Positions 1,152 through 45,032 of a stretch of 64,000 bases of DNA are shown here, one piece after another (the stretch's first letter is position 1; every line of letters starts with the position of its first letter). The notes under the pieces were generated by a model, which had not been told where the DNA came from, made no database searches, and was given only the letters and a program-made list of their open reading frames with translations. The stretch spans positions 121,841 through 185,840 of the forward strand of contig JAQTLZ010000002.1 in assembly GCA_028714635.1 (NCBI GenBank). Direction: 5' to 3'. The position numbers were made by a program, and so were the translations under genes. The stretch comes from Minisyncoccota bacterium. Lineage in GTDB: Bacteria > Patescibacteriota > Minisyncoccia > Phycocordibacterales > JAQTLZ01.

Positions 1152-1220
1152 ATCGATTCTCCTAGATTAAAGCTCGTAACTCTGGTATAACAAAGGGGCT
1201 CATTTATTGAGTTTTTAAAT

Positions 1221-1292
1221 GGTGGCTATGGTGTAGCGGCAGCACAAGAGCTTGTGGAGCTTTTAGTCTGGGTTCAACTCCCAGTAGCCACC
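1221..1292 (+). tRNA. tRNA-His (anticodon GTG) with genome-encoded G-1
   Basis: Manual fold: G-1 pairs with discriminator C1292; 7-bp acceptor stem GTGGCTA/TAGCCAC; D-stem GTGT/GCAC; anticodon stem AGAGC/GCTTT with loop TTGTGGA (anticodon GTG); T-arm CTGGG-TTCAACT-CCCAG. CCA is not fully encoded. Confidence 0.8.
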
Positions 1293-1301
1293 CAAGGAAA
1301 C

Positions 1302-1326
1302 AAAACAGCCGAAAGGCTGTTTTGTC
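1302..1326 (+). terminator. Intrinsic terminator-like hairpin after tRNA-His
   Basis: AAAACAGCC-GAAA-GGCTGTTTT stem-loop (GNRA-type loop) followed by TTTTGTCTT. Confidence 0.65.
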
Positions 1327-1328
1327 TT

Positions 1329-1466
1329 GGGTGGCTAAGTGAGCAACCAAGGTTGCTCACGTCTGGGAGTTGAAGCCCGATTGAGCACACCGCCCTTTTA
1401 AAACAAAAGGGCGGGGTCCAATCGGGGTACTGCTTCTGTAAGAAGCGACATCCCCAGTAGCCACCC
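1329..1466 (+). ncRNA. tRNA-His-derived, highly structured RNA-like element (138 nt), function unknown
   Basis: A 9-bp terminal helix GGGTGGCTA/TAGCCACCC and the helix CTGGG/CCCAG copy the acceptor and T stems of the adjacent tRNA. Three perfect internal hairpins (1339-1360, 1390-1414, 1432-1446) and an 8-bp long-range helix (1376-1383/1419-1426). The 15-nt block CCCAGTAGCCACCCA is identical to the tRNA 3' end. Confidence 0.35.
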
Positions 1467-1545
1467 AAACAAAACATGTAACCAGTCTCTCGGTATTTCG
1501 TCATTTTGAGTAAAGGTCGCATTACTCAATTCTTAGAAAAAAACT

Positions 1546-17042: not shown

Positions 17043-17588
17043 ATGGCAAAACAAAAAATAGACGAAGGGCGAAATTGGTATGTCATCCACACCTATGCTG
17101 GATATGAAAATGCCGTTGCTCGAAACCTAAAACAGCGCATCGAATCTCTTGGAATGGAGAACAAGATTTTCAACGTGCTCGTTCCAACAGAAAAGAAGAT
17201 CAAAATTAAAGGAGGGAAGCGAGTAGAGGAGGAAGAGAAAATTTATCCCGGATACATTCTTGTGGATATGATCGTGACTGATGATTCTTGGTACGTAGTT
17301 CGAAACACTCCTCGTGTGACCGGCTTCGTCGGCTCTGGAGTATACCCAGTTCCAATCGATCAGAAAGAAGTAGACGCGCTCTTCAAGAGAATGCAATCCG
17401 ATACCGTAAAGCACACGATTGATCTTGCTCCAGAAGACCATGTGATGATCGTTGACGGCCCATTCAAGGATTTGGACGGCAAGGTAAACGAGGTTGATCA
17501 GGAAAGAGGCAAGGTGAAAGTGCTTGTTTCGATGTTCGGACGAGAGACGCCAGTAGAACTCGACTTCCTTCAGGTCAAAAAGGCTTAA
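17043..17588 (+). CDS. nusG: Transcription antitermination factor NusG
   Basis: NGN domain (WYVIHTYAGYENAV) and C-terminal KOW motif (VDGPFKDLDGKV). Confidence 0.95.
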   Translation: MAKQKIDEGRNWYVIHTYAGYENAVARNLKQRIESLGMENKIFNVLVPTEKKIKIKGGKRVEEEEKIYPGYILVDMIVTDDSWYVVRNTPRVTGFVGSGVYPVPIDQKEVDALFKRMQSDTVKHTIDLAPEDHVMIVDGPFKDLDGKVNEVDQERGKVKVLVSMFGRETPVELDFLQVKKA

Positions 17589-17617
17589 AAAAGTTTAGCT
17601 GAAGCAAACTTTTTTAA

Positions 17618-17659
17618 CGTCGGGCTTTTTTCCTGAAATAATGAAAAAAGCCCGACGTA
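17618..17659 (+). terminator. 15-bp perfect hairpin (bidirectional terminator/attenuator) between nusG and rplK
   Basis: ACGTCGGGCTTTTTT-(12 nt)-AAAAAAGCCCGACGT. Preceded by a second A/T hairpin at 17587-17615. Confidence 0.6.
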
Positions 17660-17709
17660 AACTAGTTCAGTTGCAAATAAGAAGAAATTAAGATAACCTA
17701 CACACACTT

Positions 17710-18132
17710 ATGGCAAAGAAAGTAACAAAAAAATTGAAGCTTGTGATCGCCGGGGGAAAGGCAAACCCAGCTCCACCAATTGGCCCTGCGCTTGGTCAGG
17801 CTGGTATTAACATTGGGGAGTTCGTCACCAAGTTCAACGCTGCAACCAAGGATATGATCGGAGACCTCGTTCCCGTACAGGTTTTTGTATACGAAGACCG
17901 AACATTCTCTTTTGTCACCAAGACTCCTCCCGCATCGAGCCTTATCATGAAGGCGATCAAGATCGACAAAGGTTCAGGCAAGCCAAACACCTCAAAAGTA
18001 GGAAAGATCAGCCGAGCGCAGATCAAAGCAATTGCAGAAAAGAAACTTCCTGATTTGAATGCGAATGATTTGGCTGGGGCTATGAAGATTATTGAGGGAA
18101 GCGCCCGCTCAATGGGGGTTGATGTGATCTAA
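17710..18132 (+). CDS. rplK: 50S ribosomal protein L11
   Basis: Canonical L11: [21 protein letters not shown]. Confidence 0.95.
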
Positions 18133-18185
18133 ATCACATCAACCGACCTTTTGAGACAGAATTCCGCGTATGCGCGGAAATTATG

Positions 18186-18213
18186 TCCAAAAGGTGTACT
18201 GCTCCTGTAAGGA
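18186..18213 (+). repeat. Conserved 25-nt motif AAAGGTGTAC(T/A)GCTCCTGTAAGGAG, copy 1
   Basis: 24/25 nt identical to 45005-45032. Contains the small hairpin CTCCT-GTA-AGGAG. Confidence 0.5.
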
Positions 18214-18243
18214 GTTGATGTGATTGGATAAATAATGATAAAA

Positions 18244-18297: not shown

Positions 18298-20943
18298 ATG
18301 GAAAATTTTACTCCTAAAAATCCAGCCGAACTCGAACTTCAGCTCCAGAAGGCCAGCCAAACTCTTGGAGAATCTATTGCCGTTCCTTCTAAAATAGCAG
18401 ATACGCTTGGTATTTCTTTAGAAGACCTTAAGGTCAAGTTTCCTCGACGATACGAGGCGTATCTCAAGCTTATCCGAGCTGAGAAAAACAACCAGGAAAT
18501 TCCGCAAGAAGATCTCGAACATTTTCAAAAATGGATTCGAGCACTTAACAATCTTGATCGTTATATAGAATCACAAAAGACCGAAATCGGCAGAACCCTT
18601 CGTGAAAAACAAGTAGGCGTTTTCGAGGATATGAGGGATTTCGTGGAAGAGGGTGGCCAGGCTGGTTACGTTAAATTACCTACGGGATTTGGTAAGACTG
18701 TCATTTTCTCTCAATTCGTAGAGGCTCTTGGCTTACGTACACTTATCGCAGTCCCCAAGAAGAATCTTGTCCACCAAACAGCAAAAAGCCTTGAACGGTT
18801 CACTGATCTTGATGTTGGAAAACTGTATCAATATGCCAAAGAGCACGATAAGCCAGTGACGGTTAGTACATACCAATCGATGATAAAGGAAACTGAAGAT
18901 GGAGGATTAAAGCCGGAAGAGTACGACTGCCTTATCTTGGACGAAGCGCATAAAGCACTTGGGCCAAAAAGTGTTCACACCATTGAAAAGTTTGATCATG
19001 CGCTCCGGCTCGGATTCACAGCCACTCCGCAATATTCTGAAACAAAAGGAGTGCAAGATCTTTTGGAAACAGAAATCCACAGCATCTCGATCAAAGAGGC
19101 TGTGGACGATGGGGCGCTTTCCTCCTTTTCGGTCATTTTAGCAAGAACTAAAGTAGACCTTTCGAAAGTAAAGGTGAAATCTGACGGAGAATATGATGAA
19201 AAAGATTTGGAAAAAGCCATAAACGTAGCTTCCCGCAATATGGCTGCAATCAATCTTTATAAAAAGATGTTTAATGGAAAACACGCAATGGCCTATTGCG
19301 CTGGTGTCGAACATGCCCGGGAAGTTGCACGACTTTTCAACGAAGCTGGCATCAAAAGCGTAGCGGTCGCAGGTGAAGACCATCTTTCGGAAGAAGAAAT
19401 GTTGGATATCTTTGAAAAATTCCGTTCAGGAGAGATCAAAGTGATTACCAATGCTGATATTTTTGTCGAAGGATTCGATGAGCCGAAAGCTTCTGTGTGT
19501 CTCAATTTGCGCCCAACCGCATCACCGGTCGTGGCAGAACAGCGGGGCGGTAGAGTTTTGAGACTAGATCCTTCCGATGAGAATAAGCACGCGTTTATCG
19601 TTGACTTTGTTGATGAGGATGAGAAGGCAGATTCCATAAATATTTCTTTTGCAGAAGTTGCGGAAGCTTCTGAATTTCCTCCGAGGACAAACTCGCGTCT
19701 CGGAGAGGTCACTCCAGATCAAACTGAATCAGTTTCTCGCGAGAAAAGCGATATTGTCATCGAAGGGCTGGAGCTTGTAACTGATCCGAATGAAGTTATG
19801 AGGCTCGTACAGAACAAGGCGTCCAGAAAAAAAGGAACAAATGCCGAGCTAGAAGCTCAGGAAATACCGAAATGCCCGGAAGGATGGCTTGCCGTTTTGT
19901 ATTTTTCTGATGACCAACATAAAAAATATGGTTTAAAAAGATATATGGAACGTTCCATAATTTCTAGGGTAGAGCGCAAAAACGCGCATCTCTTCGGTCA
20001 ATTTAGAAGCGAGCGAAAAACGCAAGATACAGAGTGGTTTTTGTCGCCTGAAGCGCAGGCTCTTATTGAAAAGGATATGGCTTATCATGCGGGGTGGGAC
20101 TTGAAAGAGAGAGGATATACTTCTGGGCTTGAGCTCAGTAAAAGATTCGCTCTTTTTAGAGAAAAATTTCGACATTTGGAAGATGAAATATCAGAGGCGG
20201 ATCCGCAAGCGATAATTACCCGTACCTATCAGAGATTTTATTCTGCGGATGCAATAAAAGAAATTGAGGCTGTTTATGGCAAGTTTGCTCCAGAGGGATG
20301 GATTTATCGGGCGGATATCTTCCGTAAATATTTTGGCGGTAGTAAAACTGGGGGTGACGCAGGGAACAAGTTGGTGGAAAAGTTGAAGAAAGAGATGCCT
20401 GATGAAGTCGATGTGTTTGTGAATAGGCCAACTGGCCATAGTTTAGAGTTCTATTCGCCTCGTTTTGTTGAAGAGTTTGGGAAGAGAGATATAACCAGTG
20501 TCTACAAAAGCAAAGAAGAAAAAGCAAAGCGCATCGAGGATAAGAAGCGGGAAGGTCCTCCTTCGGGGTGGTTTCCTGTGAAAGATATTGTTATTTTGTG
20601 TCGAATTAAGGAACCTTTCCTCAGGCGCAAATTGAATGATATGGAGTTTTTGCACGATAATGAAATTAAAAATCTCGCTTTCGGCTTTAAGACGAACATA
20701 CTCTGTGCCACGGCAAAAATAATTCGCCAAATTATCCTGGATGATTGTAAACGTATCAAAACGGGAGAGCCGCCAGCTGGCTGGCAATCAACAGATGAGA
20801 TTTTACAGGCAAGAAGCTTAGAACTGCAAGATTTCTACTATAAACTTCTTTCTTTGCTGCCGACTCCAGAGACTATGAAGAGATATACAAAGAAAGGTGT
20901 CACTGACTACTATTTCAGTCCTGATTTTTTGGCAAAGTTATAA
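18298..20943 (+). CDS. SF2 DEAD/DEAH-box-type helicase with long C-terminal extension containing repeated PxGW modules
   Basis: Motif I GFGKTVIF, motif II LILDEAHKA, motif III GFTATP, motif VI QRGGRVLRL. C-terminal ~450 aa has four spaced P(E/S/A)GW motifs. Confidence 0.9.
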   Translation: MENFTPKNPAELELQLQKASQTLGESIAVPSKIADTLGISLEDLKVKFPRRYEAYLKLIRAEKNNQEIPQEDLEHFQKWIRALNNLDRYIESQKTEIGRTLREKQVGVFEDMRDFVEEGGQAGYVKLPTGFGKTVIFSQFVEALGLRTLIAVPKKNLVHQTAKSLERFTDLDVGKLYQYAKEHDKPVTVSTYQSMIKETEDGGLKPEEYDCLILDEAHKALGPKSVHTIEKFDHALRLGFTATPQYSETKGVQDLLETEIHSISIKEAVDDGALSSFSVILARTKVDLSKVKVKSDGEYDEKDLEKAINVASRNMAAINLYKKMFNGKHAMAYCAGVEHAREVARLFNEAGIKSVAVAGEDHLSEEEMLDIFEKFRSGEIKVITNADIFVEGFDEPKASVCLNLRPTASPVVAEQRGGRVLRLDPSDENKHAFIVDFVDEDEKADSINISFAEVAEASEFPPRTNSRLGEVTPDQTESVSREKSDIVIEGLELVTDPNEVMRLVQNKASRKKGTNAELEAQEIPKCPEGWLAVLYFSDDQHKKYGLKRYMERSIISRVERKNAHLFGQFRSERKTQDTEWFLSPEAQALIEKDMAYHAGWDLKERGYTSGLELSKRFALFREKFRHLEDEISEADPQAIITRTYQRFYSADAIKEIEAVYGKFAPEGWIYRADIFRKYFGGSKTGGDAGNKLVEKLKKEMPDEVDVFVNRPTGHSLEFYSPRFVEEFGKRDITSVYKSKEEKAKRIEDKKREGPPSGWFPVKDIVILCRIKEPFLRRKLNDMEFLHDNEIKNLAFGFKTNILCATAKIIRQIILDDCKRIKTGEPPAGWQSTDEILQARSLELQDFYYKLLSLLPTPETMKRYTKKGVTDYYFSPDFLAKL

Positions 20944-21024
20944 TTCTCGTCTTCGTCTATACTTATATAGACCAAGAATTTATCGTATATGTTAAACTAA
21001 TTCCATTATCATCTCTTTATTTTT

Positions 21025-22878
21025 ATGAACAAAAAAGGATTTTTGCCGGTTCTCATTGGAATAATTATCGCACTTCTTTTAGTCGGCGGGGGAATATTCT
21101 ATTTTGTTAAAAAACAGCAAACGGTATCTTCCTCTGTTGATGCTGTTTCTACTGCTGATTGGAAAACATATGGAAACGAGAAAGACGGTTTTGAATTTCA
21201 GTATCCCCCAAAATTTAAAATTGACCCAAATGCTTCCGAAGTATTTTTCGACATAACAGGAGAAGATAATCAGGTATTTTTTAGTGCTTCTGCTGACCCG
21301 ATCGTGGATGCACATGGAGTACCTTTGACTTTCGAAAAGTGGCTCAAATATTATGGCTTTGACGAGGGGTACAAAAGAGAAAACAGAACAATCAACGGGA
21401 ATTCATGGCTACGTTTAGAAGGTTCGGGTCGCGGTAGGACTTTTTATATTCTCGTGAAAGGAAATATGATGTACAGCTTTATTATGGGCTATGGAGCTCA
21501 GAATCGGCCGGACTTGCTTTTGTTGCAGGATAAAATTGTTACCACTTTCAAATTTACCTCTAATTCCATCTCCACTTCCGATTGGAAAACATACAGAAAC
21601 ATAAAAGAAAGATTTCAAATGCAGTATCCTCCCAGTTGGAAGGTGGTTGAAAATGTTTCTGCTCCATATCTTGTAAAATTTGTTGATCCTCTTCGTGAAG
21701 CAAAGCCGGGTACCGATCAGTCGGAAGATATGGTCTTAGTAGGTACGGGCACAATAAAACCCGCTGACTGGGAGAAAGGCTCCGGTTCGGTTTTCTGGAA
21801 GCAGGATTATGTAACGGGGGAACGCTACGTAAGAATGTCAGCCTTTGATGAAACTTCAGAAAAAATTGAAGAAAAAATTCAGTCTAGTTTTAGATTTTTA
21901 GAAGAAAAGGCGGGATGGTCTAGCTATCGAAGTACAACAGATCAATTTGATATATCTTATCCCGGCCTCTCGGCTCTGAATTTTTGGAAATTAAAGCAAG
22001 AACCCATAGAAGTTTATACCAATAAGTTACTTTTCGATTCAAGAGGGTGTCTTATAAGTAATCAAAAAAATCCTCTTGAATATATTGGAAGCCCTCTTCT
22101 TGGTGGTATTCAATTTTGTCTTAATCAAAGCATTGATCGTTCGATGGGAAATGTTTCTCTCGATTATTACTACACTACATTTAAATTCGGGAAATTTTAT
22201 GTAATTCACCTCAAGTCTGAAGGTCTTTGCACAGCCGATTCTTCAAAATCCTCTGATATTTGCAGTCTTGATAACCCCTCTGTCCAGTCGCGCATAAGGC
22301 AAGATGGGGATGAAGTTGCACTGTCTTTCAAATTTTTGGAGCCAGATCAATCAAAAGCTGATTGGGATACGTCCCCGGCAGATTGGTTGGTTTATAAGCA
22401 CCCGATTTATGGGTATTCTCTCAAATATCCTAGGAGTTTCTCGAACCATGATAGAGGAGAATCAGGAGAGAATTTAATTCCGCCCAATGATTATTTTGAG
22501 GGAACCACATTTCATGGCGGAGCCAGTTTTATAACCGGTATAAATGATGTTGATGAAAAAAACTGTTCAATGATACCTTATCGTTCCACTCAAGAGCTGG
22601 CCCGTGTTGTGAAGGATGGGCAAGTCTATTATAAAATTCAAACGAGCACTATCATGGCGGGAGATCCAAGGGACAGAGATCTCACTATTCAATACAGCGC
22701 GTTTAAGAATAGGGTATGCTATCAACTTACATTGAGCATGTATATCGTGAATCCTTCATCTGTTTATTCCAATCCTGAAGAAATTCTCAATGCCCAAAAA
22801 CAGAATATTATAGTGGAAGAGAAGTTGAAAAAACTATTTGATGTGATTGCTCAGACTTTTGTTGTACCGGCTAATTAG
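21025..22878 (+). CDS. Membrane-anchored extracytoplasmic protein with ~4 internal repeats
   Basis: N-terminal TM, then repeated modules each opening with a DW(K/D)TY...F(E/Q)(F/M)QYPP.(F/W)K-like signature. Confidence 0.85.
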   Translation: MNKKGFLPVLIGIIIALLLVGGGIFYFVKKQQTVSSSVDAVSTADWKTYGNEKDGFEFQYPPKFKIDPNASEVFFDITGEDNQVFFSASADPIVDAHGVPLTFEKWLKYYGFDEGYKRENRTINGNSWLRLEGSGRGRTFYILVKGNMMYSFIMGYGAQNRPDLLLLQDKIVTTFKFTSNSISTSDWKTYRNIKERFQMQYPPSWKVVENVSAPYLVKFVDPLREAKPGTDQSEDMVLVGTGTIKPADWEKGSGSVFWKQDYVTGERYVRMSAFDETSEKIEEKIQSSFRFLEEKAGWSSYRSTTDQFDISYPGLSALNFWKLKQEPIEVYTNKLLFDSRGCLISNQKNPLEYIGSPLLGGIQFCLNQSIDRSMGNVSLDYYYTTFKFGKFYVIHLKSEGLCTADSSKSSDICSLDNPSVQSRIRQDGDEVALSFKFLEPDQSKADWDTSPADWLVYKHPIYGYSLKYPRSFSNHDRGESGENLIPPNDYFEGTTFHGGASFITGINDVDEKNCSMIPYRSTQELARVVKDGQVYYKIQTSTIMAGDPRDRDLTIQYSAFKNRVCYQLTLSMYIVNPSSVYSNPEEILNAQKQNIIVEEKLKKLFDVIAQTFVVPAN

Positions 22879-22976
22879 AGTCTCTCCAGTGTTACCCTAT
22901 ATCTATCAACAGAAAATACTATCATATATGATAGTATTTTAGGAAAGGGAAAGGTCTACGTATAAGTGCTTTTTGA

Positions 22977-23882
22977 TTACATAGTGAAACCAGATGCAAT
23001 CATCTCACTAAGTTTCTTGCGCAGTATCTCATAACCATCGGGGATTTTTCTTCCTTGTTTTGTCTCCAGCATATGTTTTATGGGTCTTATAAGACCTGGG
23101 AATTTCGATCTTCTCAAGAGATCTTTGTCCTTTTGACCACTATAGAATGAGAAAGTCTGCTCTGCGAAAAGATTTCCATAATCCCACAAGCCAGCAAAAT
23201 CTGCTGCCGGATCTGCGATGTCGATATCTGAAAAATCAATAATGCCGGTTAAGGCTCCTGTGGTTTGGTCAAAAAGTATATGTTTGTTGTTTAAATCATA
23301 ATGAATTATTTTTGGTTCAAAGTCGAAAGACAGACCGAGATATTCATTGAACTGGTGTTCAACCCAGTCAACCTCTTTGTTTGTCAATTCAGGAAAAACT
23401 TTCTCTCGTAACTCTTTTAAAATTGATTCGATATTTCGCTTTCCCCACCAGTGCCCTTTCGGATCAGCCTTGAAACCGCAGTTTCTCAATATCTCCGTCG
23501 GCGTCGAATGTAAATCCGAAATAAATTTTCCTAATGCTTTGGCGATATCAGTTTTTTGAATTTCACTTTGTGAATTGAAAAGTTCAGGTTGCATTTCAGT
23601 ACCAGTCAGCATTTGATATCCACCAAAGCTCCTGTCTTTAGAAAGATAGATATATTTGGGAATGGGTAGCGTTACTTTTGTGAGTAGGTGTTCTAGGAAT
23701 TTTACCTCCACTTGAAAACGTCGAATATAATTCTCCGATTTAGGAAAACGGAAAATGAGCCTATCGTCCAAGACGATCACATTGTTATCCCATCCATGAG
23801 TGATCAATCTGGAATTTTGAAACGAAACTTCGGGGAATTCCTTTTTTATAAGCTCCAGATATTCTTCTTTTGTTCTTTCCAT
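22977..23882 (-). CDS. APH/choline-kinase-family phosphotransferase
   Basis: HYDLNNKHILFD (HxDxxxxN catalytic loop), GIIDFSD (DFxD). ATG (MERTKEEY) 2 nt downstream of the folA stop; the ORF track's upstream ATG 23906 lies inside folA. Confidence 0.85.
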   Translation of the reverse strand: MERTKEEYLELIKKEFPEVSFQNSRLITHGWDNNVIVLDDRLIFRFPKSENYIRRFQVEVKFLEHLLTKVTLPIPKYIYLSKDRSFGGYQMLTGTEMQPELFNSQSEIQKTDIAKALGKFISDLHSTPTEILRNCGFKADPKGHWWGKRNIESILKELREKVFPELTNKEVDWVEHQFNEYLGLSFDFEPKIIHYDLNNKHILFDQTTGALTGIIDFSDIDIADPAADFAGLWDYGNLFAEQTFSFYSGQKDKDLLRRSKFPGLIRPIKHMLETKQGRKIPDGYEILRKKLSEMIASGFTM

Positions 23883-23884
23883 AA

Positions 23885-24376
23885 CTATTTTTCCAAAGTG
23901 ACCCAAGAATATTTCAAATCGCCAAACATTTTTTCTTCTCGGAAAGTTTCTTTCTTGAATTCGTTTTCGTATTCTGGGAAAAATGTGTCGGCTGGGATTT
24001 CAGAGTGAATGATTGTGAGGTAGAGCCTGTCTGCGAAGGGGAGTGCTTGTTTGTAAATTTCTCCTCCACCGATGACGAAGATTTCGGCCGCGCCTCCTTC
24101 AGAGGCGCGGCCTTTTTCGAGCGCCTCTTCGATCGTATTTGTCACAATGCACCCTTCCGCTTTGAAATCTTTATTTCTGGTGACGATGATATTTGCACGG
24201 CCGGGGAGCGCCCGTCCTATGGACTCATACGTTTTTCGTCCCATGATAATGGGATGCCCCATCGTAAGCGCTTTAAACCGCTTCAAATCCTCTGGAATCC
24301 GCCACAGAAGCTTATTTTCCGTGCCGAGGCCACGGGTTTTCTCGCTTATTCCAGCTATCATGTTTACTTTTGACAT
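23885..24376 (-). CDS. folA: Dihydrofolate reductase
   Basis: MIAGISEKTRGLGTENKLLWRIPEDLKRFKALTMGHPIIMGRKTYESIG...IFVIGGGEIY: canonical DHFR. Confidence 0.95.
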   Translation of the reverse strand: MSKVNMIAGISEKTRGLGTENKLLWRIPEDLKRFKALTMGHPIIMGRKTYESIGRALPGRANIIVTRNKDFKAEGCIVTNTIEEALEKGRASEGGAAEIFVIGGGEIYKQALPFADRLYLTIIHSEIPADTFFPEYENEFKKETFREEKMFGDLKYSWVTLEK

Positions 24377-34513: not shown

Positions 34514-37500
34514 ATGTCCGAGAAAGAAACAGACAAAAAAGTGAAAAGCCCTTTAGCTCTCCGTGAAGAGGAGATTCTTCGATTTTGGCAGGAAAAGAAA
34601 ATTTTTGAGAAGACAGAAGAGGCAGGCAGAGGGCAGAAGGAATTTGTTTTCTATGAGGGACCGCCGACCGCGAATGGTCGGCCGGGAATCCATCATCTCG
34701 AAGCTCGGGCATTTAAAGACATCATTCCTCGCTATAAAACGATGCGAGGATATCACGTGCGCAGAAAAGGCGGCTGGGATACGCATGGGCTTCCGGTTGA
34801 GCTTGAAGTTGAGAAAAAACTCGGTCTCAAATCAAAAAAAGAGATCGAACAGTACGGCATCGCTAGATTTAACGCGGAGTGCAAAGAAAGTGTTTGGAAA
34901 TACGTGGACGAATGGAAACAATTTACCGAGCGAATGGGGTATTGGATCGATCTGAAAAATCCCTACATCACTTACGAGCCTTCGTATATGGAATCGCTTT
35001 GGAATGTGATGAAGACGGTGGATGAGAAAAAACTTCTCTACAAAGATTATCGAATTGTACCGTGGTGTCCGCGTTGTGGAACTGCGCTGTCGAGTCATGA
35101 ACTTGCCCAAGGCTATGCAGAAGTAAAAGATATTTCGGTTTACGCGAAATTTGAGCTCGTCGATGAGCCGGGTACATTTGTGTTGGCGTGGACGACGACA
35201 CCTTGGACATTGCCGGGGAATGTTGCTCTCGCAGTTGGGCCGAAAATCAAATATGTGAAAGTAAAGATTGGGAATGAGTTCTTTATTTTGGCGAAAGAGA
35301 GGCTTTCAATTCTGAAAGACAAAGCGCACGAAATGGTGGAGGAGTTTGATGCCGGAAAGATTATCGGGAAATCCTACAAACCGCTTTTCAATGCTTTTTC
35401 TGACCCAAAAATCCTAAACAAAGAAAATGCGTGGAAAATTTATGGAGCGGATTTTGTCACAACAACTGACGGAACCGGAGTGGTGCATATCGCGCCCATG
35501 TATGGAGCAGACGATTTCGCACTTGCGACGAAAGTAAATTTGCCGAAATATCATACGGTTACTCCAGCAGGCGCTTTTAATGCAGATAAAAATCTTCCGG
35601 GAAACATTTCAGGCATTTCTATTTCTTCCGAAGAGGATCGTAAAAAAGGGAACATTGAGATCCTTAAATATCTTCAGGAAAAAAATCTCTATTTCGATAA
35701 AGAATCTCATGCGCATGAATATCCTTTTTGTTGGCGCTGTAAAACCCCGCTTATCTATTACGCCCGCGATTCCTGGTATATCAAAATGTCTTCTCTTCGC
35801 GACAAATTGGTAAAAGAAAATGAAAAGATAAATTGGGAGCCAGACTATATCAAAGAGGGACGTTTCGGAGAATGGCTTCGCGAAGTGAAAGATTGGGCGA
35901 TCTCCCGCGAGCGCTATTGGGGCACACCTTTGCCTGTGTGGGAGTGCCAAAAATGCAAAAAACGCGAAGTGATCGGCTCAATCGAGGCTCTCAAAGAAAA
36001 AACATCTCGAAAAAATAAATACTTTCTTGTCCGTCATGGGGAAGCGGAATCGAATTTGACTGGGAAGGTAAGCTGTCGGCCAGATGATCCTTACAAGCTT
36101 ACTGACAAGGGAAGGGAACAAGTCGAGACCACAGCTAAGGCCCTTAAAAAGAAAAAAATCGATGTCATTTTTGTTTCTGATTACATTCGGACAAAAGAGA
36201 CAGCAGAAATTATCCGAGAAGCTTTGAATATTTCTCCTGACAAAGTCATCATCGATGCCCGGCTTCGCGAAGATAATATCGGAGTGTACCAAGGCAAGAC
36301 CTGGAAAGAATATCAGGATGAATATCCGTATCTCGAGCGATTCGTAAAAACTCCAGAAGGCGGAGAGACGCTTGCGGAAGTAAGAAAAAGATCTGGAGAT
36401 TTTCTGTTTGATATTGATTCTCGCTTTGCCGGAAAAAATATTCTGATTGTAAGCCATGATACCCCGATGACTCTGATTCTGGCAGTGGCGCAAGGCTGGA
36501 CGAAGGAAAGAATTCTGCTCGGTCACGAGAGAAAAACTCCCGAACCTTTCTATTTTCTGCCAGCAGAGCTTCGAGAGATTTCTTTTTCTCCCTATCCTCA
36601 CAATGATGACTATGAACTCGATCTTCACCGCCCGTTTATCGATGAAATAAAATTTCCTTGCGACTGTGGCCTGCCCCCTGGCCGGGCAGGCGGCCAGGGC
36701 GGAGAGATGAAACGAGTGAATGAAGTAATGGATGTCTGGTTTGATTCAGGCGCAATGCCGTTCGCCGAGGACCACTATCCATTCGAGAATAAAAAGTGGG
36801 TGGAGAAAGAAGGATTTCCGGCAGACTATATTTCTGAAGCGATTGATCAGACTCGCGGATGGTTTTATACGCTTCATGCTGTGGGAGTGCTTATGGGTTT
36901 CGGCAAGGCGTATAAAAATGTTATTTGTCTCGGGCATATTTTGGATAAGGACGGACAAAAAATGTCCAAATCAAAAGGTAACACGGTAAATCCGTGGGAG
37001 ATGATGGACAAGTATGGCGCTGATCCCCTTCGCTTTTGGATGTATGGCGTCAATCAGCCGGGCGAATCAAAAAACTTCGACGAGAAAACAGTTGATGAGG
37101 GAGTGAAAAAAGTATTCAATTTGCTTTTGAACGTTCTTTCTTTTTACGAGATGAATTCTCCCCAAGAGTTCGAAGTAAGCAAGCCGGGCGCAAGCGAGAA
37201 TGTCTTGGATAGATGGATCGAAGCGAAATTTGCCGAGCTCCTCGCTACAGTAGAAACCGGACTCGATGCGTATCGAGTATTTGAGCCTGCCCGCGCAATT
37301 CGCGATTTTATGGCTGACCTTTCGCAGTGGTATTTGAGGCGTTCTCGTGATCGATTTAAAAGTGATGACGTCTTAGATAGGACGAATGCAGTCCAAACAA
37401 CGCGCACGGTCCTTCTTCAATTGGCGAAACTTATGGCTCCGTTCACTCCGTTTGTTGCGGAAGATGTCTATCGAAGACTCAGGGGCGAGAAGGAGAGTGT

Positions 37501-37984
37501 GCATATGGAAAGCTGGCCAAAGAGAGAAAAAATAGATTCCAAACTTCTGAAAGAAATGGAAGCGGTGAGAAATCTTGTGTCACTCGGGCTCGAAGCTCGC
37601 TCGAAAGCGCTTATCAAGGTCCGCCAGCCGCTCGCGAAGATAACAGTGAAGGCCGAGAAAATGTCTCCAGAACTCGTCGGACTTATGAAAGATGAATTGA
37701 ATGTGAAGGAAGTGATGTTTGATGCGAAACTTTCTTCGAATGTTCTTCTCGATATTGTCATAACTCCTGCGTTAAAAGAAGAAGGAGAATATCGAGAACT
37801 TCTGCGAGTTATCCAAGATTTTAGAAAAGAAAAGAAGCTTCAAGCGAGCGACAAAATTTCGCTTTTTCTGACTGCACCGAAAGAGATCCTGGCAATTGTA
37901 AAAAAATTTGAAACTGAAATAAAAAAGGTTTGCAATGTTACCGGCTTTGAAACGAGGGAAGGCGAGTTTGAGCTTAAGCTGTAA
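34514..37984 (+). CDS. ileS: Isoleucyl-tRNA synthetase (type 2) carrying an inserted histidine-phosphatase (PGAM-like) domain
   Basis: PPTANGRPGIHH (HIGH), GWDTHGLPVE, DVWFDSG, KMSKSKGN. Between CQKC and DLHRPFIDEIKFPCDCG lies a ~200-aa module with LVRHGEAESN (RHG) and IVSHDTPM (second catalytic His). Confidence 0.95.
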   Translation: MSEKETDKKVKSPLALREEEILRFWQEKKIFEKTEEAGRGQKEFVFYEGPPTANGRPGIHHLEARAFKDIIPRYKTMRGYHVRRKGGWDTHGLPVELEVEKKLGLKSKKEIEQYGIARFNAECKESVWKYVDEWKQFTERMGYWIDLKNPYITYEPSYMESLWNVMKTVDEKKLLYKDYRIVPWCPRCGTALSSHELAQGYAEVKDISVYAKFELVDEPGTFVLAWTTTPWTLPGNVALAVGPKIKYVKVKIGNEFFILAKERLSILKDKAHEMVEEFDAGKIIGKSYKPLFNAFSDPKILNKENAWKIYGADFVTTTDGTGVVHIAPMYGADDFALATKVNLPKYHTVTPAGAFNADKNLPGNISGISISSEEDRKKGNIEILKYLQEKNLYFDKESHAHEYPFCWRCKTPLIYYARDSWYIKMSSLRDKLVKENEKINWEPDYIKEGRFGEWLREVKDWAISRERYWGTPLPVWECQKCKKREVIGSIEALKEKTSRKNKYFLVRHGEAESNLTGKVSCRPDDPYKLTDKGREQVETTAKALKKKKIDVIFVSDYIRTKETAEIIREALNISPDKVIIDARLREDNIGVYQGKTWKEYQDEYPYLERFVKTPEGGETLAEVRKRSGDFLFDIDSRFAGKNILIVSHDTPMTLILAVAQGWTKERILLGHERKTPEPFYFLPAELREISFSPYPHNDDYELDLHRPFIDEIKFPCDCGLPPGRAGGQGGEMKRVNEVMDVWFDSGAMPFAEDHYPFENKKWVEKEGFPADYISEAIDQTRGWFYTLHAVGVLMGFGKAYKNVICLGHILDKDGQKMSKSKGNTVNPWEMMDKYGADPLRFWMYGVNQPGESKNFDEKTVDEGVKKVFNLLLNVLSFYEMNSPQEFEVSKPGASENVLDRWIEAKFAELLATVETGLDAYRVFEPARAIRDFMADLSQWYLRRSRDRFKSDDVLDRTNAVQTTRTVLLQLAKLMAPFTPFVAEDVYRRLRGEKESVHMESWPKREKIDSKLLKEMEAVRNLVSLGLEARSKALIKVRQPLAKITVKAEKMSPELVGLMKDELNVKEVMFDAKLSSNVLLDIVITPALKEEGEYRELLRVIQDFRKEKKLQASDKISLFLTAPKEILAIVKKFETEIKKVCNVTGFETREGEFELKL

Positions 37985-44961: not shown

Positions 44962-45004
44962 GGACCCGTCCCGCAAGACCTTGAGTGTTTTGTAATCAAA
45001 AAGC

Positions 45005-45032
45005 GAAAGGTGTACAGCTCCTGTAAGGAGGA
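45005..45032 (+). repeat. Conserved 25-nt motif, copy 2
   Basis: GCGAAAGGTGTACAGCTCCTGTAAGGAGG; 24/25 identical to copy 1 at 18186-18213. Lies in the 5' leader of metG. Confidence 0.5.

What the first reader, a model, noticed from the sequence alone, without database searches (positions are those of the whole stretch)
1221..1466. tRNA-His followed by a 138-nt highly base-paired element that re-uses the tRNA acceptor and T-stem sequences
A clean tRNA-His(GTG) with encoded G-1 (1221-1292) and a terminator-like hairpin (1302-1326) is followed by a second element (1329-1466). Its terminal 9-bp helix (GGGTGGCTA/TAGCCACCC) and an inner 5-bp helix (CTGGG/CCCAG) are sequence copies of the tRNA acceptor and T stems. 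The 15-nt block CCCAGTAGCCACCCA is identical at 1280-1294 and 1453-1467. In place of a 7-nt T-loop, the T-like helix encloses ~85 nt holding three perfect hairpins and an 8-bp long-range helix (CCCGATTG/CAATCGGG). This density of perfect Watson-Crick helices is not expected by chance. Possibilities are a tRNA-like ncRNA, a tRNA gene carrying a large non-canonical insertion, or a relic duplication from an integration event at the tRNA. No integrase or mobile gene is nearby, and ~170 nt is too small for an element.
Basis: seen in the sequence. Interest (0 to 1): 0.6.

Follow-up and report, generated by a model that had tools for sequence, protein, structure and literature searches.

The report
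Tiny structured insertion element beside tRNA-His
The "second tRNA-like element" is one copy of a previously uncatalogued family of tiny, gene-less, hairpin-rich insertion elements in Patescibacteria that land at the 3' ends of genes (tRNAs, a ribosomal protein gene). Each copy carries an inverted and a direct copy of its target's last ~20 bases, which is why this one looks like tRNA-His.

Summary
tRNA-His(GTG) lies at 1221-1293, a perfect 11-bp hairpin at 1300-1325, and a 138-nt element at 1329-1467 folds at -78 kcal/mol (z = -9). The 15-nt block is repeated exactly.

It is not a one-off relic and not a tRNA. It belongs to a family found after tRNA-His, tRNA-Leu and tRNA-Ser in Paceibacterota and Saccharibacteria MAGs. 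This window holds two more copies: 18129-18224 inside the end of rplK, and about 44977-45031.

Every copy has the layout target end X, hairpin linker, inverted copy X', conserved core, direct copy X2. The core is a long hairpin, then GUACUG, then a 5-bp hairpin with a UGUAA loop. In tRNA-linked copies a 9-bp hairpin usually splits X' at the acceptor/T-stem boundary.

Two filled-versus-empty comparisons show insertion:
- rplK relatives (96-98% identical L11) lack the 96-nt block and keep the codon that continues in frame after X2.
- One relative's tRNA-His locus lacks a 197-nt block that is flanked by a 20-nt direct repeat, with identical flanks on both sides.

Nine distinct sequences show strong covariation (37 of 48 pairs). 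Rfam has no matching family. No transposase, integrase or reverse transcriptase is encoded in the 64 kb.

How the element moves, and how X' is matched to each target, remains inferred.

The parts
1221..1293 (+). tRNA-His(GTG) with encoded G-1. This is the target gene.
   Evidence: ARAGORN. Rfam RF00005, 59.4 bits.
1273..1294 (+). X1: the target segment that is copied, comprising the T-loop, 3' T-stem, 3' acceptor strand and C73-C-A. The inferred insertion point is right after 1294.
   Evidence: Inverted repeats I1 and I2 and direct repeat D1. The insertion point is set by analogy with the L011/L058 filled/empty pair, where the block starts right after ..CCACCCA.
1295..1328 (+). Linker L: A-run, GC hairpin (stem 1300-1310/1315-1325, loop GAAA), T-run. 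It looks like a bidirectional terminator and is element-borne.
   Evidence: 11-bp perfect inverted repeat I5. Such hairpins follow 9 of 9 tRNAs that have the element and none of 12 tRNAs without it at -10 kcal/mol or below. The corresponding hairpin is part of the inserted block in L011 versus L058. The simple terminator scan does not call it.
1326..1337 (+). X'a: inverted copy of the tRNA 3' acceptor strand plus the first trailer bases (CTTGGGTGGCTA). It is the 5' strand of the terminal helix P1.
   Evidence: I2: 12 of 12 bases complementary to 1285-1296. P1 appears in the fold.
1338..1362 (+). AG-P2-CGT module: a 9-bp perfect hairpin that splits X' exactly at the acceptor/T-stem boundary.
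   Evidence: I8. P2 is paired in 100% of cells and 8 of its 9 pairs have changes on both sides. The same module occurs in His-, Leu- and Ser-linked copies.
1363..1374 (+). X'b: inverted copy of the T-loop plus 3' T-stem (CTGGGAGTTGAA). It is the 5' strand of P3.
   Evidence: 12 of 12 bases complementary to TTCAACTCCCAG at 1273-1284.
1375..1446 (+). Conserved core: P4 (1376-1383/1419-1426), P5 hairpin (1391-1413), GTACTG (1427-1432), and P6, a 5-bp stem with a TGTAA loop (1432-1446).
   Evidence: Core model R2 scores 69.6 bits, E = 9e-17. Coordinates. Covariation.
1453..1476 (+). X2: direct copy of the tRNA 3' end (exact over 1453-1467, similar through 1476). It is the 3' strand of P3 and P1.
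18129..18224 (+). Second copy in the window, inserted in the penultimate codon of rplK. Layout: CTAA linker (new stop codon), X' ATCACATCAACC, core, X2 GTTGATGTGAT.
   Evidence: R2 scores 71.5 bits. Sequence. The closest L11 relatives are 1 aa longer and end ..VDVIG. Empty sites are seen in L027 and L028. The repeat triplet is located.
44977..45031 (+). Third, partly decayed copy of the core. It lies between an AI-2E transporter gene and metG, and no X2 is recognisable.
   Evidence: R2 scores 27.2 bits, E = 3e-5. Sequence. Neighbouring genes.

Best explanation
Window 1295-1467 is one copy of a family of small (about 95-200 nt), non-coding, highly base-paired insertion elements of Patescibacteria. 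They sit at the 3' ends of genes, co-oriented with the gene.

Shown:
- The element is multi-copy and has a conserved, covarying core.
- It is absent from the same site in close relatives.
- Its insertion leaves the target's last 11-20 nt (X) on both sides.
- It carries an inverted copy of X (X') behind a hairpin linker.
- The tRNA-like terminal helix and T-like helix of the finding are therefore X' paired with X2. These are the element's target-matched arms, not remains of a second tRNA.

Inferred:
- The element is non-autonomous and is moved in trans, because no enzyme gene lies in or near it.
- It homes to a site that matches its own X. The folded X2-linker-X' hairpin reproduces the double-stranded target, so a recombinase or homology-dependent exchange within X would give exactly the observed order X-L-X'-core-X.
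- X' is kept matched to the neighbouring gene by templated copying or correction across the hairpin.
- The A-run/GC-hairpin/T-run linker supplies a terminator-like 3' hairpin (or, in rplK, a stop codon). This would make insertion nearly harmless.
For: Family and breadth:
- The same architecture follows tRNA-His in a Paceibacterota and a Saccharibacteria MAG and in metagenome contigs.
- It also follows tRNA-Leu(GAG) and tRNA-Ser(GCT).
- The window has three copies, and a fourth lies 1.4 kb upstream in the same genome.

Structure:
- 94.9% of cells are paired and 37 of 48 pairs have changes on both sides.
- The covariation score is 0.663, against 0.209 in shuffles (0 of 500 reach it) and 0.07-0.17 for slid controls.

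Insertion:
- rplK in the window ends ..VDVI*, while relatives 96-98% identical end ..VDVIG.
- Their DNA reads GATGTGATTGGATAA where the window has GATGTGAT[96 nt]TGGATAA.
- L011 differs from L058 by a 197-nt block flanked by a 20-nt direct repeat. The left flank is 219/220 identical and the right flank 115/115.
- Three states occur among close relatives: E2 only, E1+E2, and E1 only.

Target matching:
- P1 and P3 follow the local tRNA. Examples are GTGTCTA in L018, Leu in L022 and L024, and Ser in L037.
- X' matches the neighbouring tRNA over perfect runs of 11-15 nt. These runs are as long as or longer than its longest perfect run against its own X2 in all nine copies examined.

Other points:
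- Decay and turnover are seen in L019, L023 and L024.
- Strong hairpins follow 9 of 9 tRNAs with the element and 0 of 12 without it.
- No Rfam family matches.
- No transposase, integrase or reverse transcriptase is found in the window.
Against: - No mobilising enzyme has been identified, so movement is inferred only from presence/absence.
- Simple homology-based homing does not explain how a lineage first acquires X' and X2 for an unrelated target such as rplK.
- It also does not explain why the AG-P2-CGT hairpin sits exactly at the acceptor/T-stem boundary in His-, Leu- and Ser-linked copies. That placement looks like deliberate tRNA mimicry.
- Paralogous copies within one genome are strongly diverged but keep their structure. 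This fits selection on a functional RNA as well as it fits a mobile element.
- The alignment used for the covariation counts was fitted to the model.
- Only about 15 loci were examined, all found through biased searches.
Confidence: 0.7

Rival explanations
1. It is a host-useful structured RNA: a tRNA-like small RNA or a 3'-end riboregulator. X' can pair either with the upstream gene's 3' end (X1) or with the decoy X2. The conserved core then acts like an aptamer or protein-binding domain that sets this switch, or the acceptor-like helix is handled by RNase P, the CCA-adding enzyme or HisRS. This could coexist with mobility.
For: - Strong covariation and conserved unpaired motifs (GUACUG, UGUAA loop).
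- The + strand, which is the sense of the upstream gene, folds better in 10 of 11 copies.
- The P2 hairpin emerges exactly where the D/anticodon domain leaves a real tRNA, and P1 keeps G-1:C73.
- The rplK copy lies upstream of the gene's original terminator, so it should be transcribed.
- One copy lies in the leader of metG.
Against: - The element is sporadic among close relatives and is often truncated or decayed.
- Tandem copies occur.
- No promoter-like site is found, and a terminator-like hairpin sits immediately upstream of tRNA-linked copies.
- Very few G-U pairs occur, 0-4 per about 50 pairs. That would be unusually low for a helix maintained only at the RNA level, in my experience of structured RNAs; no reference set was compared here.
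- There is no Rfam family.
Confidence: 0.2
2. It is a scar of a conventional integrase-mediated island or prophage that integrated at the tRNA-His 3' end and was later deleted, leaving attL and attR close together.
For: - There is a direct repeat of the tRNA 3' end.
- In L012-L016 a large serine recombinase gene abuts the same tRNA-His 3' end. So this site is used by integrating elements in these bacteria.
Against: - The same about 140-nt unit, with a conserved and covarying interior, recurs in many genomes and at unrelated targets.
- The whole 197-nt or 96-nt unit is what differs between filled and empty sites.
- Independent deletions would not leave the same interior.
- An inverted target copy is not an att feature.
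Confidence: 0.04
3. It is a local replication accident, such as a fold-back or template switch at a terminator hairpin, that duplicated the tRNA 3' end once in this genome.
For: A palindrome is centred on the hairpin loop, with the pattern original, inverted copy, direct copy.
Against: Homologous elements with the same core occur in different phyla-level lineages and at other genes. The 72-nt core is not derived from the tRNA.
Confidence: 0.03
4. It is a degenerate second tRNA-His gene or pseudogene whose D and anticodon arms and T-loop were replaced by insertions.
For: The acceptor and T-stem sequences are identical to those of tRNA-His.
Against: - It is not called by ARAGORN or the Rfam tRNA model.
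- The segment after the T-stem is the antisense, not the sense, of the T-loop.
- The same core sits at rplK, where the stems copy the rplK coding sequence.
- The stems switch to Leu or Ser next to those tRNAs.
Confidence: 0.02

Closest known systems
Bacterial miniature non-autonomous elements that fold as hairpins and can sit inside genes (MITEs such as Neisseria Correia elements; Rickettsia palindromic elements). Comparison from my own knowledge.
   Same: They are small, non-coding, multi-copy and strongly base-paired. They show insertion polymorphism between relatives, can lie inside or at the end of coding genes and beside RNA genes, and encode no transposase.
   Different: Those families have fixed terminal inverted repeats and short, fixed target duplications. 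Here the closing stems differ at every locus and are copies of the target (11-20+ nt), one inverted and one direct. What is conserved is an internal core.
Integrative elements at tRNA 3' ends (attL/attR direct repeats that rebuild the tRNA), and integrase-less cis-mobilisable derivatives (CIMEs). Comparison from my own knowledge.
   Same: Insertion is exactly at the tRNA 3' end and gives a direct repeat of about 20 nt of the tRNA. Tandem accretion occurs (E1+E2). A serine recombinase element uses the same tRNA-His end in relatives.
   Different: The size is 0.1-0.2 kb with no genes. An inverted target copy and a conserved structured core are present. The family is also found at a protein-gene end with matching arms.
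Recombination sites that work as folded single strands: integron attC sites, and the CTX-phi attP(+) hairpin used by XerCD. Comparison from my own knowledge.
   Same: Structure is conserved while stem sequence varies freely. A hairpin whose stem imitates the double-stranded target would, by exchange in one arm, give the observed order X-L-X'-core-X.
   Different: No IntI or Xer-type signature boxes were seen. No recombinase is linked to the element. The strandedness and the intermediate are untested.
Group I intron P1/internal guide sequence, and group II intron EBS-IBS pairing. Comparison from my own knowledge.
   Same: The element starts with a segment complementary to the sequence immediately upstream of its insertion point.
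   Different: There is no Rfam intron hit. The 72-nt core is far too small for either ribozyme. The target is duplicated, which splicing elements do not do.

Membership tests
tRNA / tRNA pseudogene | Cloverleaf recognised by tRNA models (D arm, anticodon arm, T-loop) | tested here: not met
   ARAGORN finds only 1222-1293. The Rfam tRNA model hits only the true tRNA, even at E<=10. The T-loop is present only as its antisense.
Any curated RNA family (Rfam 15, 4227 models, including tmRNA, Y RNA-like, T-box, introns, omega/HEARO RNAs) | Covariance-model match at or near the gathering score | tested here: not met
   Nothing but tRNA reaches the gathering score in the window or in 12 related loci. 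Only chance-level hits appear at E<=10 in 1100-1600.
MITE | Small, non-coding, multi-copy, with insertion polymorphism | tested here: met
   There are at least 4 copies in this genome. Filled and empty sites are documented. No ORF spans the element.
MITE | Family-wide terminal inverted repeats of fixed sequence, and a short target duplication of fixed length | tested here: not met
   The terminal stems are locus-specific copies of the target. The duplication is 11 nt at rplK and 20 nt at tRNA-His in L011.
Integrase-type integrative element at a tRNA gene | Direct repeat of the tRNA 3' end flanking the insert | tested here: met
   15-24 nt in the window. 20 nt in L011.
Integrase-type integrative element at a tRNA gene | Integrase or recombinase gene within the element | tested here: not met
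   The insert is 96-197 nt. No recombinase is found among 50 ORFs of the window. A serine recombinase lies next to tRNA-His only in other genomes.
Rho-independent terminator (linker L) | GC-rich hairpin followed by a T-run | tested here: inconclusive
   An 11-bp hairpin is followed by TTTTGTCTT. Folding energy is -10 to -26 kcal/mol in 9 of 9 element-bearing loci. The consensus scan calls no terminator in 1100-1700.
Folded single-strand recombination site (attC / CTX-type) | Recombination by a dedicated recombinase on one folded strand | not testable with these tools
   Only the architecture and a weak + strand bias (10 of 11 copies) are available.

The most novel reading that the evidence does not exclude
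This is a new class of bacterial mobile element. It is a gene-less, about 100-200-nt structured cassette whose arms are written from, or re-matched to, the target itself: one inverted and one direct copy of the target's last about 20 nt. In effect it would be a self-retargeting homing element for gene 3' ends that brings its own terminator or stop codon. It might be moved through a folded single-stranded or RNA intermediate by a still unknown enzyme. The tRNA-shaped version would double as a tRNA mimic.
Probability: 0.3. Interest if true: 0.85.

Novelty: new variant of a known kind. Interest (0 to 1): 0.68.

Why it matters
If correct, Patescibacteria (CPR bacteria with tiny genomes and few recognised mobile elements) carry an uncatalogued family of miniature insertion elements. 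These elements target the 3' ends of tRNA and ribosomal-protein genes and carry copies of their own target.

Practical consequences:
- They create tRNA-like false signals.
- They may contribute to assembly breaks. The Logan contigs stop at 1196 and restart at 1264, on either side of the 5' part of the tRNA-His gene and just upstream of the repeats.
- They alter gene ends, as in L11, which is shortened by one residue.

Conceptually, the way the arms are matched to each target is not explained by known transposition or integration chemistry. A census combined with phylogenetic profiling could point to the enzyme. Target-templated arms, if real, would be of interest as a programmable insertion principle.

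Tried and rejected
- Rfam at gathering and at permissive thresholds gave nothing but tRNA.
- I read the minus strand as a tRNA with insertions. No T-arm can be formed, and the minus strand folds worse in 10 of 11 copies.
- Two Parabeggiatoa hits from the genome-wide pattern scan are unrelated palindromic repeats.
- A core-pattern scan of viral contigs gave 29 hits. Only one (L037) is confirmed by the covariance model; the rest are at chance level for a 19-base pattern.
- The first pattern scan of viral contigs gave 0 hits.
- A promoter scan around the element found none.
- Pfam scans of 50 window ORFs for a transposase, integrase or reverse transcriptase found none.
- Five successful literature searches, plus one that failed on term length, found no description of such an element.
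- I could not obtain an empty site for the window's own tRNA-His copy. The closest relatives either have different downstream genes (L024) or a decayed copy beside a different tRNA-His allele (L023).
- I considered hammerhead-like, group I and group II ribozyme readings, a retroviral-type primer-binding site, and a split tRNA. I rejected them on sequence motifs, size, or because complementarity follows the genomic trailer rather than a CCA end.

Full report
**1.
- The window carries one tRNA, tRNA-His(GTG), at 1222-1293 with G-1 at 1221.
- It is followed by an 11-bp perfect hairpin at 1300-1325 and by a segment, 1329-1467, that folds at -78.4 kcal/mol. Shuffles give -42.3 +/- 3.9, so z = -9.15.
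- CCCAGTAGCCACCCA is present exactly at 1280-1294 and 1453-1467.
  - The direct repeat runs on into the trailer (CCCAA[gga]ACAAAACA).
  - The 5' part of the element is a perfect inverted copy of the tRNA's T-loop, 3' T-stem, 3' acceptor strand and first trailer bases. That copy consists of CTTGGGTGGCTA and CTGGGAGTTGAA, separated by a 25-nt hairpin module.
- No Rfam family other than tRNA matches, at gathering or at permissive thresholds.
- The window's first 2252 bases equal the end of NCBI contig JAQTSW010000039.1, from a Paceibacterota/Pacebacteria MAG.

**2. It is a family.**
- I scanned one genome per species for the pattern 'tRNA-His 3' strand, its complement, 100-130 nt, the 3' strand again'. 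This found the same arrangement after tRNA-His in another Paceibacterota MAG and in a Saccharibacteria MAG.
- A metagenome scan added three more loci.
- All share the same length (134-139 nt) and the same fold.
- Five sequences already give 22 pairs with compensatory changes.
- With nine distinct sequences aligned to covariance model R1, 94.9% of cells pair and 37 of 48 pairs have changes on both sides. The covariation score is 0.663, against 0.209 for shuffles (0 of 500 reach it) and 0.07-0.17 for slid controls.
- The alignment was fitted to the model, which inflates these numbers somewhat. Even so, the 9-bp hairpin P2 is different in every sequence and is paired in 100% of cells.

**3. The tRNA-like stems follow the neighbour.**
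- Where tRNA-His has acceptor GTGTCTA (L018), the element has GGGTGTCTA/TAGACAC, and its P3 strand is the reverse complement of that tRNA's T-loop and T-stem.
- Homologous elements lie after tRNA-Leu(GAG) (L024, L022) and after tRNA-Ser(GCT) (L037). Their P1/P3 strands copy those tRNAs.
- Across nine copies, X' matches the neighbouring gene's 3' end over perfect runs of 11-15 nt. These runs are at least as long as X' shares with its own 3' strand.

**4. The core is independent of tRNAs.**
- The conserved interior consists of P4, with ..TTGAG..CCAA.. around a variable hairpin P5, then G-N-TAC-T-G, then a 5-bp stem with a TGTAA loop.
- It recurs in the window at 18145-18215 (71.5 bits) and 44977-45031 (27 bits). 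It also lies 1.4 kb upstream of the window start in the same genome.
- Every copy is co-oriented with the gene upstream of it.
- The general layout is U - X - linker - X' - core - X - D, where X is the last 11-20+ nt of the upstream gene.

**5. Insertion is demonstrated twice.**
- At rplK:
  - The window's L11 protein is 140 aa and ends ..SMGVDVI. The three closest relatives (96-98% identical) are 141 aa and end ..SMGVDVIG.
  - Their DNA reads ..GAT GTG/GTC ATT GGA TAA followed by a terminator.
  - The window reads ..GTTGATGTGAT | CTAA ATCACATCAACC GA core GTTGATGTGAT | TGGATAA followed by the same kind of terminator.
  - So 96 nt were inserted within the penultimate codon. The target is duplicated directly (11 nt) and invertedly (12 nt), and the linker provides a new stop codon.
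- At tRNA-His:
  - L058 (neighbouring protein 97% identical to that of L011) has tRNA-His, a hairpin, then E2.
  - L011 has an extra 197-nt block (1986-2182) between the tRNA and that hairpin. The block contains its own A-run/GC-hairpin/T-run linker, X', a core of a second subtype (E1) and X2.
  - The block is flanked by the 20-nt repeat CAACCCCCGATAGCCACCCA. The left flank is 219/220 identical and the right flank 115/115.
  - A third relative has E1 alone.
  - The linker hairpin therefore arrives with the element, and the insertion point is immediately after ..CCACCCA.
- Consistently, 9 of 9 tRNAs with the element are followed by a strong hairpin (-10 to -26 kcal/mol in 45 nt), against 0 of 12 tRNAs without it.
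- By analogy, the inserted block in the window is about 1295-1467.

**6. Turnover.**
- tRNA-His lacks the element in L017, L022 and L024.
- In L019 the 3' arm is replaced at a synteny break.
- In L023 a decayed copy of the window type sits beside a different tRNA-His allele.
- In L001 a Leu-matched copy has lost its tRNA.
- In L012-L016 a 571-aa large serine recombinase gene abuts the same tRNA-His end. So the site is also used by conventional integrating DNA.

**7. What it most likely is, and how it may work.**
- Shown: it is a multi-copy, structured, non-coding unit that is gained at gene 3' ends with a target duplication and an inverted target copy.
- Inferred, part 1: it is non-autonomous. 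No transposase, integrase or reverse transcriptase lies among 50 ORFs of the 64 kb.
- Inferred, part 2: it homes to sites matching its own X.
  - The observed order X-L-X'-core-X is what exchange within X would produce between the chromosome and a small molecule [L-X'-core-X].
  - In that molecule the X2-L-X' hairpin imitates the double-stranded target.
  - The exchange could be made by a trans-acting recombinase or by homology-assisted recombination after DNA uptake. Neither route was tested here.
- Stems are almost purely Watson-Crick, with 0-4 G-U per about 50 pairs.
- Linker stems differ between copies whose cores are nearly identical, and X'b follows the local T-loop base (GTTGAA versus GTCGAA).
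- Together these points suggest that the arms and hairpins are made or corrected by templated DNA copying across the hairpin, not maintained only by RNA-level selection.
- The linker gives the upstream gene a terminator-like 3' hairpin, or a stop codon. That would explain why insertions at these positions are tolerated.

**8. What remains unexplained.**
- How a lineage first acquires arms for an unrelated target such as rplK.
- Why the AG-P2-CGT hairpin splits X' exactly at the acceptor/T-stem boundary in His-, Leu- and Ser-linked copies, while the E1 subtype and the rplK copy have a continuous X'.
  - That placement reproduces the point where the D/anticodon domain leaves a real tRNA.
  - It keeps an RNA-level reading alive: tRNA mimicry, processing by RNase P, RNase Z or the CCA-adding enzyme, or a switch in which X' pairs either with the gene's 3' end or with the decoy X2.
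- The + strand folds better in 10 of 11 copies, which gives weak support for a sense-strand structure.

**9. Comparison with known systems** (from my own knowledge, apart from the Rfam and Pfam results).
- The element behaves like a MITE or a Rickettsia-type palindromic element in size, copy number and tolerance inside genes. It fails the defining test of fixed terminal repeats and a short fixed duplication.
- It resembles tRNA-targeting integrative elements in insertion point, direct repeat and tandem accretion. It has no integrase and is 0.1-0.2 kb.
- Its 'structure conserved, sequence free' stems, and the predicted product of a hairpin-mimic exchange, resemble attC and CTX-phi sites. No such recombinase is linked to it.
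- It is not an intron by model search or by size.
- I therefore file it as a new variant of miniature non-autonomous insertion elements. I give a 0.3 chance that the target-written arms reflect a truly new mobility mechanism.

**10. Verdict.**
- The finding is real and more interesting than a relic.
- Confidence is 0.7 in the descriptive claim (family, insertion, target-derived arms). This is the same 0.7 I give the best explanation as a whole.
- Confidence is about 0.35 in the proposed way of moving.
- No experiment or expression data were available.

Noticed in passing
L012 3049-4764 (also L013-L016): A 571-aa large serine recombinase gene (Resolvase, Recombinase and Zn_ribbon domains) lies on the minus strand immediately after tRNA-His. 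Its called ORF runs antisense through the whole tRNA gene. The sequence diverges from L011 exactly at the tRNA 3' end.
   Followed up: partly
window 1222-1293 versus L023 3826-3899: Two genomes whose SPFH proteins are 93% identical, and whose sequence upstream of the tRNA is visibly similar, carry very different tRNA-His alleles. Their D-loops, T-arms and anticodon stems differ. The tRNA gene itself appears to have been replaced in one lineage.
   Followed up: no
window 18298-23906: About 5.6 kb lies between the rplK terminator and the DHFR gene: a ResIII/DEAD helicase (881 aa), a 617-aa protein and an APH-family kinase. Relatives L027 and L028 have only one 160-171-aa ORF there, so this looks like an inserted island next to the rplK element copy.
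   Followed up: partly
L027 1215-1439: A free-standing 74-aa GIY-YIG ORF sits between nusG and rplK in a close relative. It is absent from the window, where the gap 17588-17710 is only 122 nt.
   Followed up: no
window 34514-37984: The class I aminoacyl-tRNA synthetase (IleRS-like, 1156 aa) carries a histidine-phosphatase (His_Phos_1) domain at residues 504-666, inside the catalytic domain.
   Followed up: no
L001 2190-2440 (same genome, upstream of the window start): A GC-rich stretch of about 250 nt with many short hairpins and no ORF call, tRNA or Rfam match lies just upstream of the Leu-type element copy. The expected tRNA-Leu is missing there.
   Followed up: no
L006 3330-3590 and L008 1000-1370 (Candidatus Parabeggiatoa): Tandem palindromic repeats containing GTAGCCACCCAAGTC...GACTTGGGTGGCTAC around an A/T-run hairpin. 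They are unrelated to tRNA-His and matched my pattern by coincidence of sequence.
   Followed up: no
window 1196-1264 and 2252: Logan contigs of SRR22315508 break at 1196 and restart at 1264, around the 5' part of the tRNA gene. The NCBI MAG contig ends at 2252, while a Logan contig runs through that point. The composition changes after about 1950.
   Followed up: partly
L037 10531-10618: ARAGORN calls a second tRNA-Ser with anticodon ACT directly downstream of the Ser-linked element, on a contig classed as viral in IMG/VR.
   Followed up: no
L018 846-1505: A 219-aa ORF with a faint LAGLIDADG_3 hit lies between rplS (L19) and tRNA-Leu in one Paceibacterota contig.
   Followed up: no
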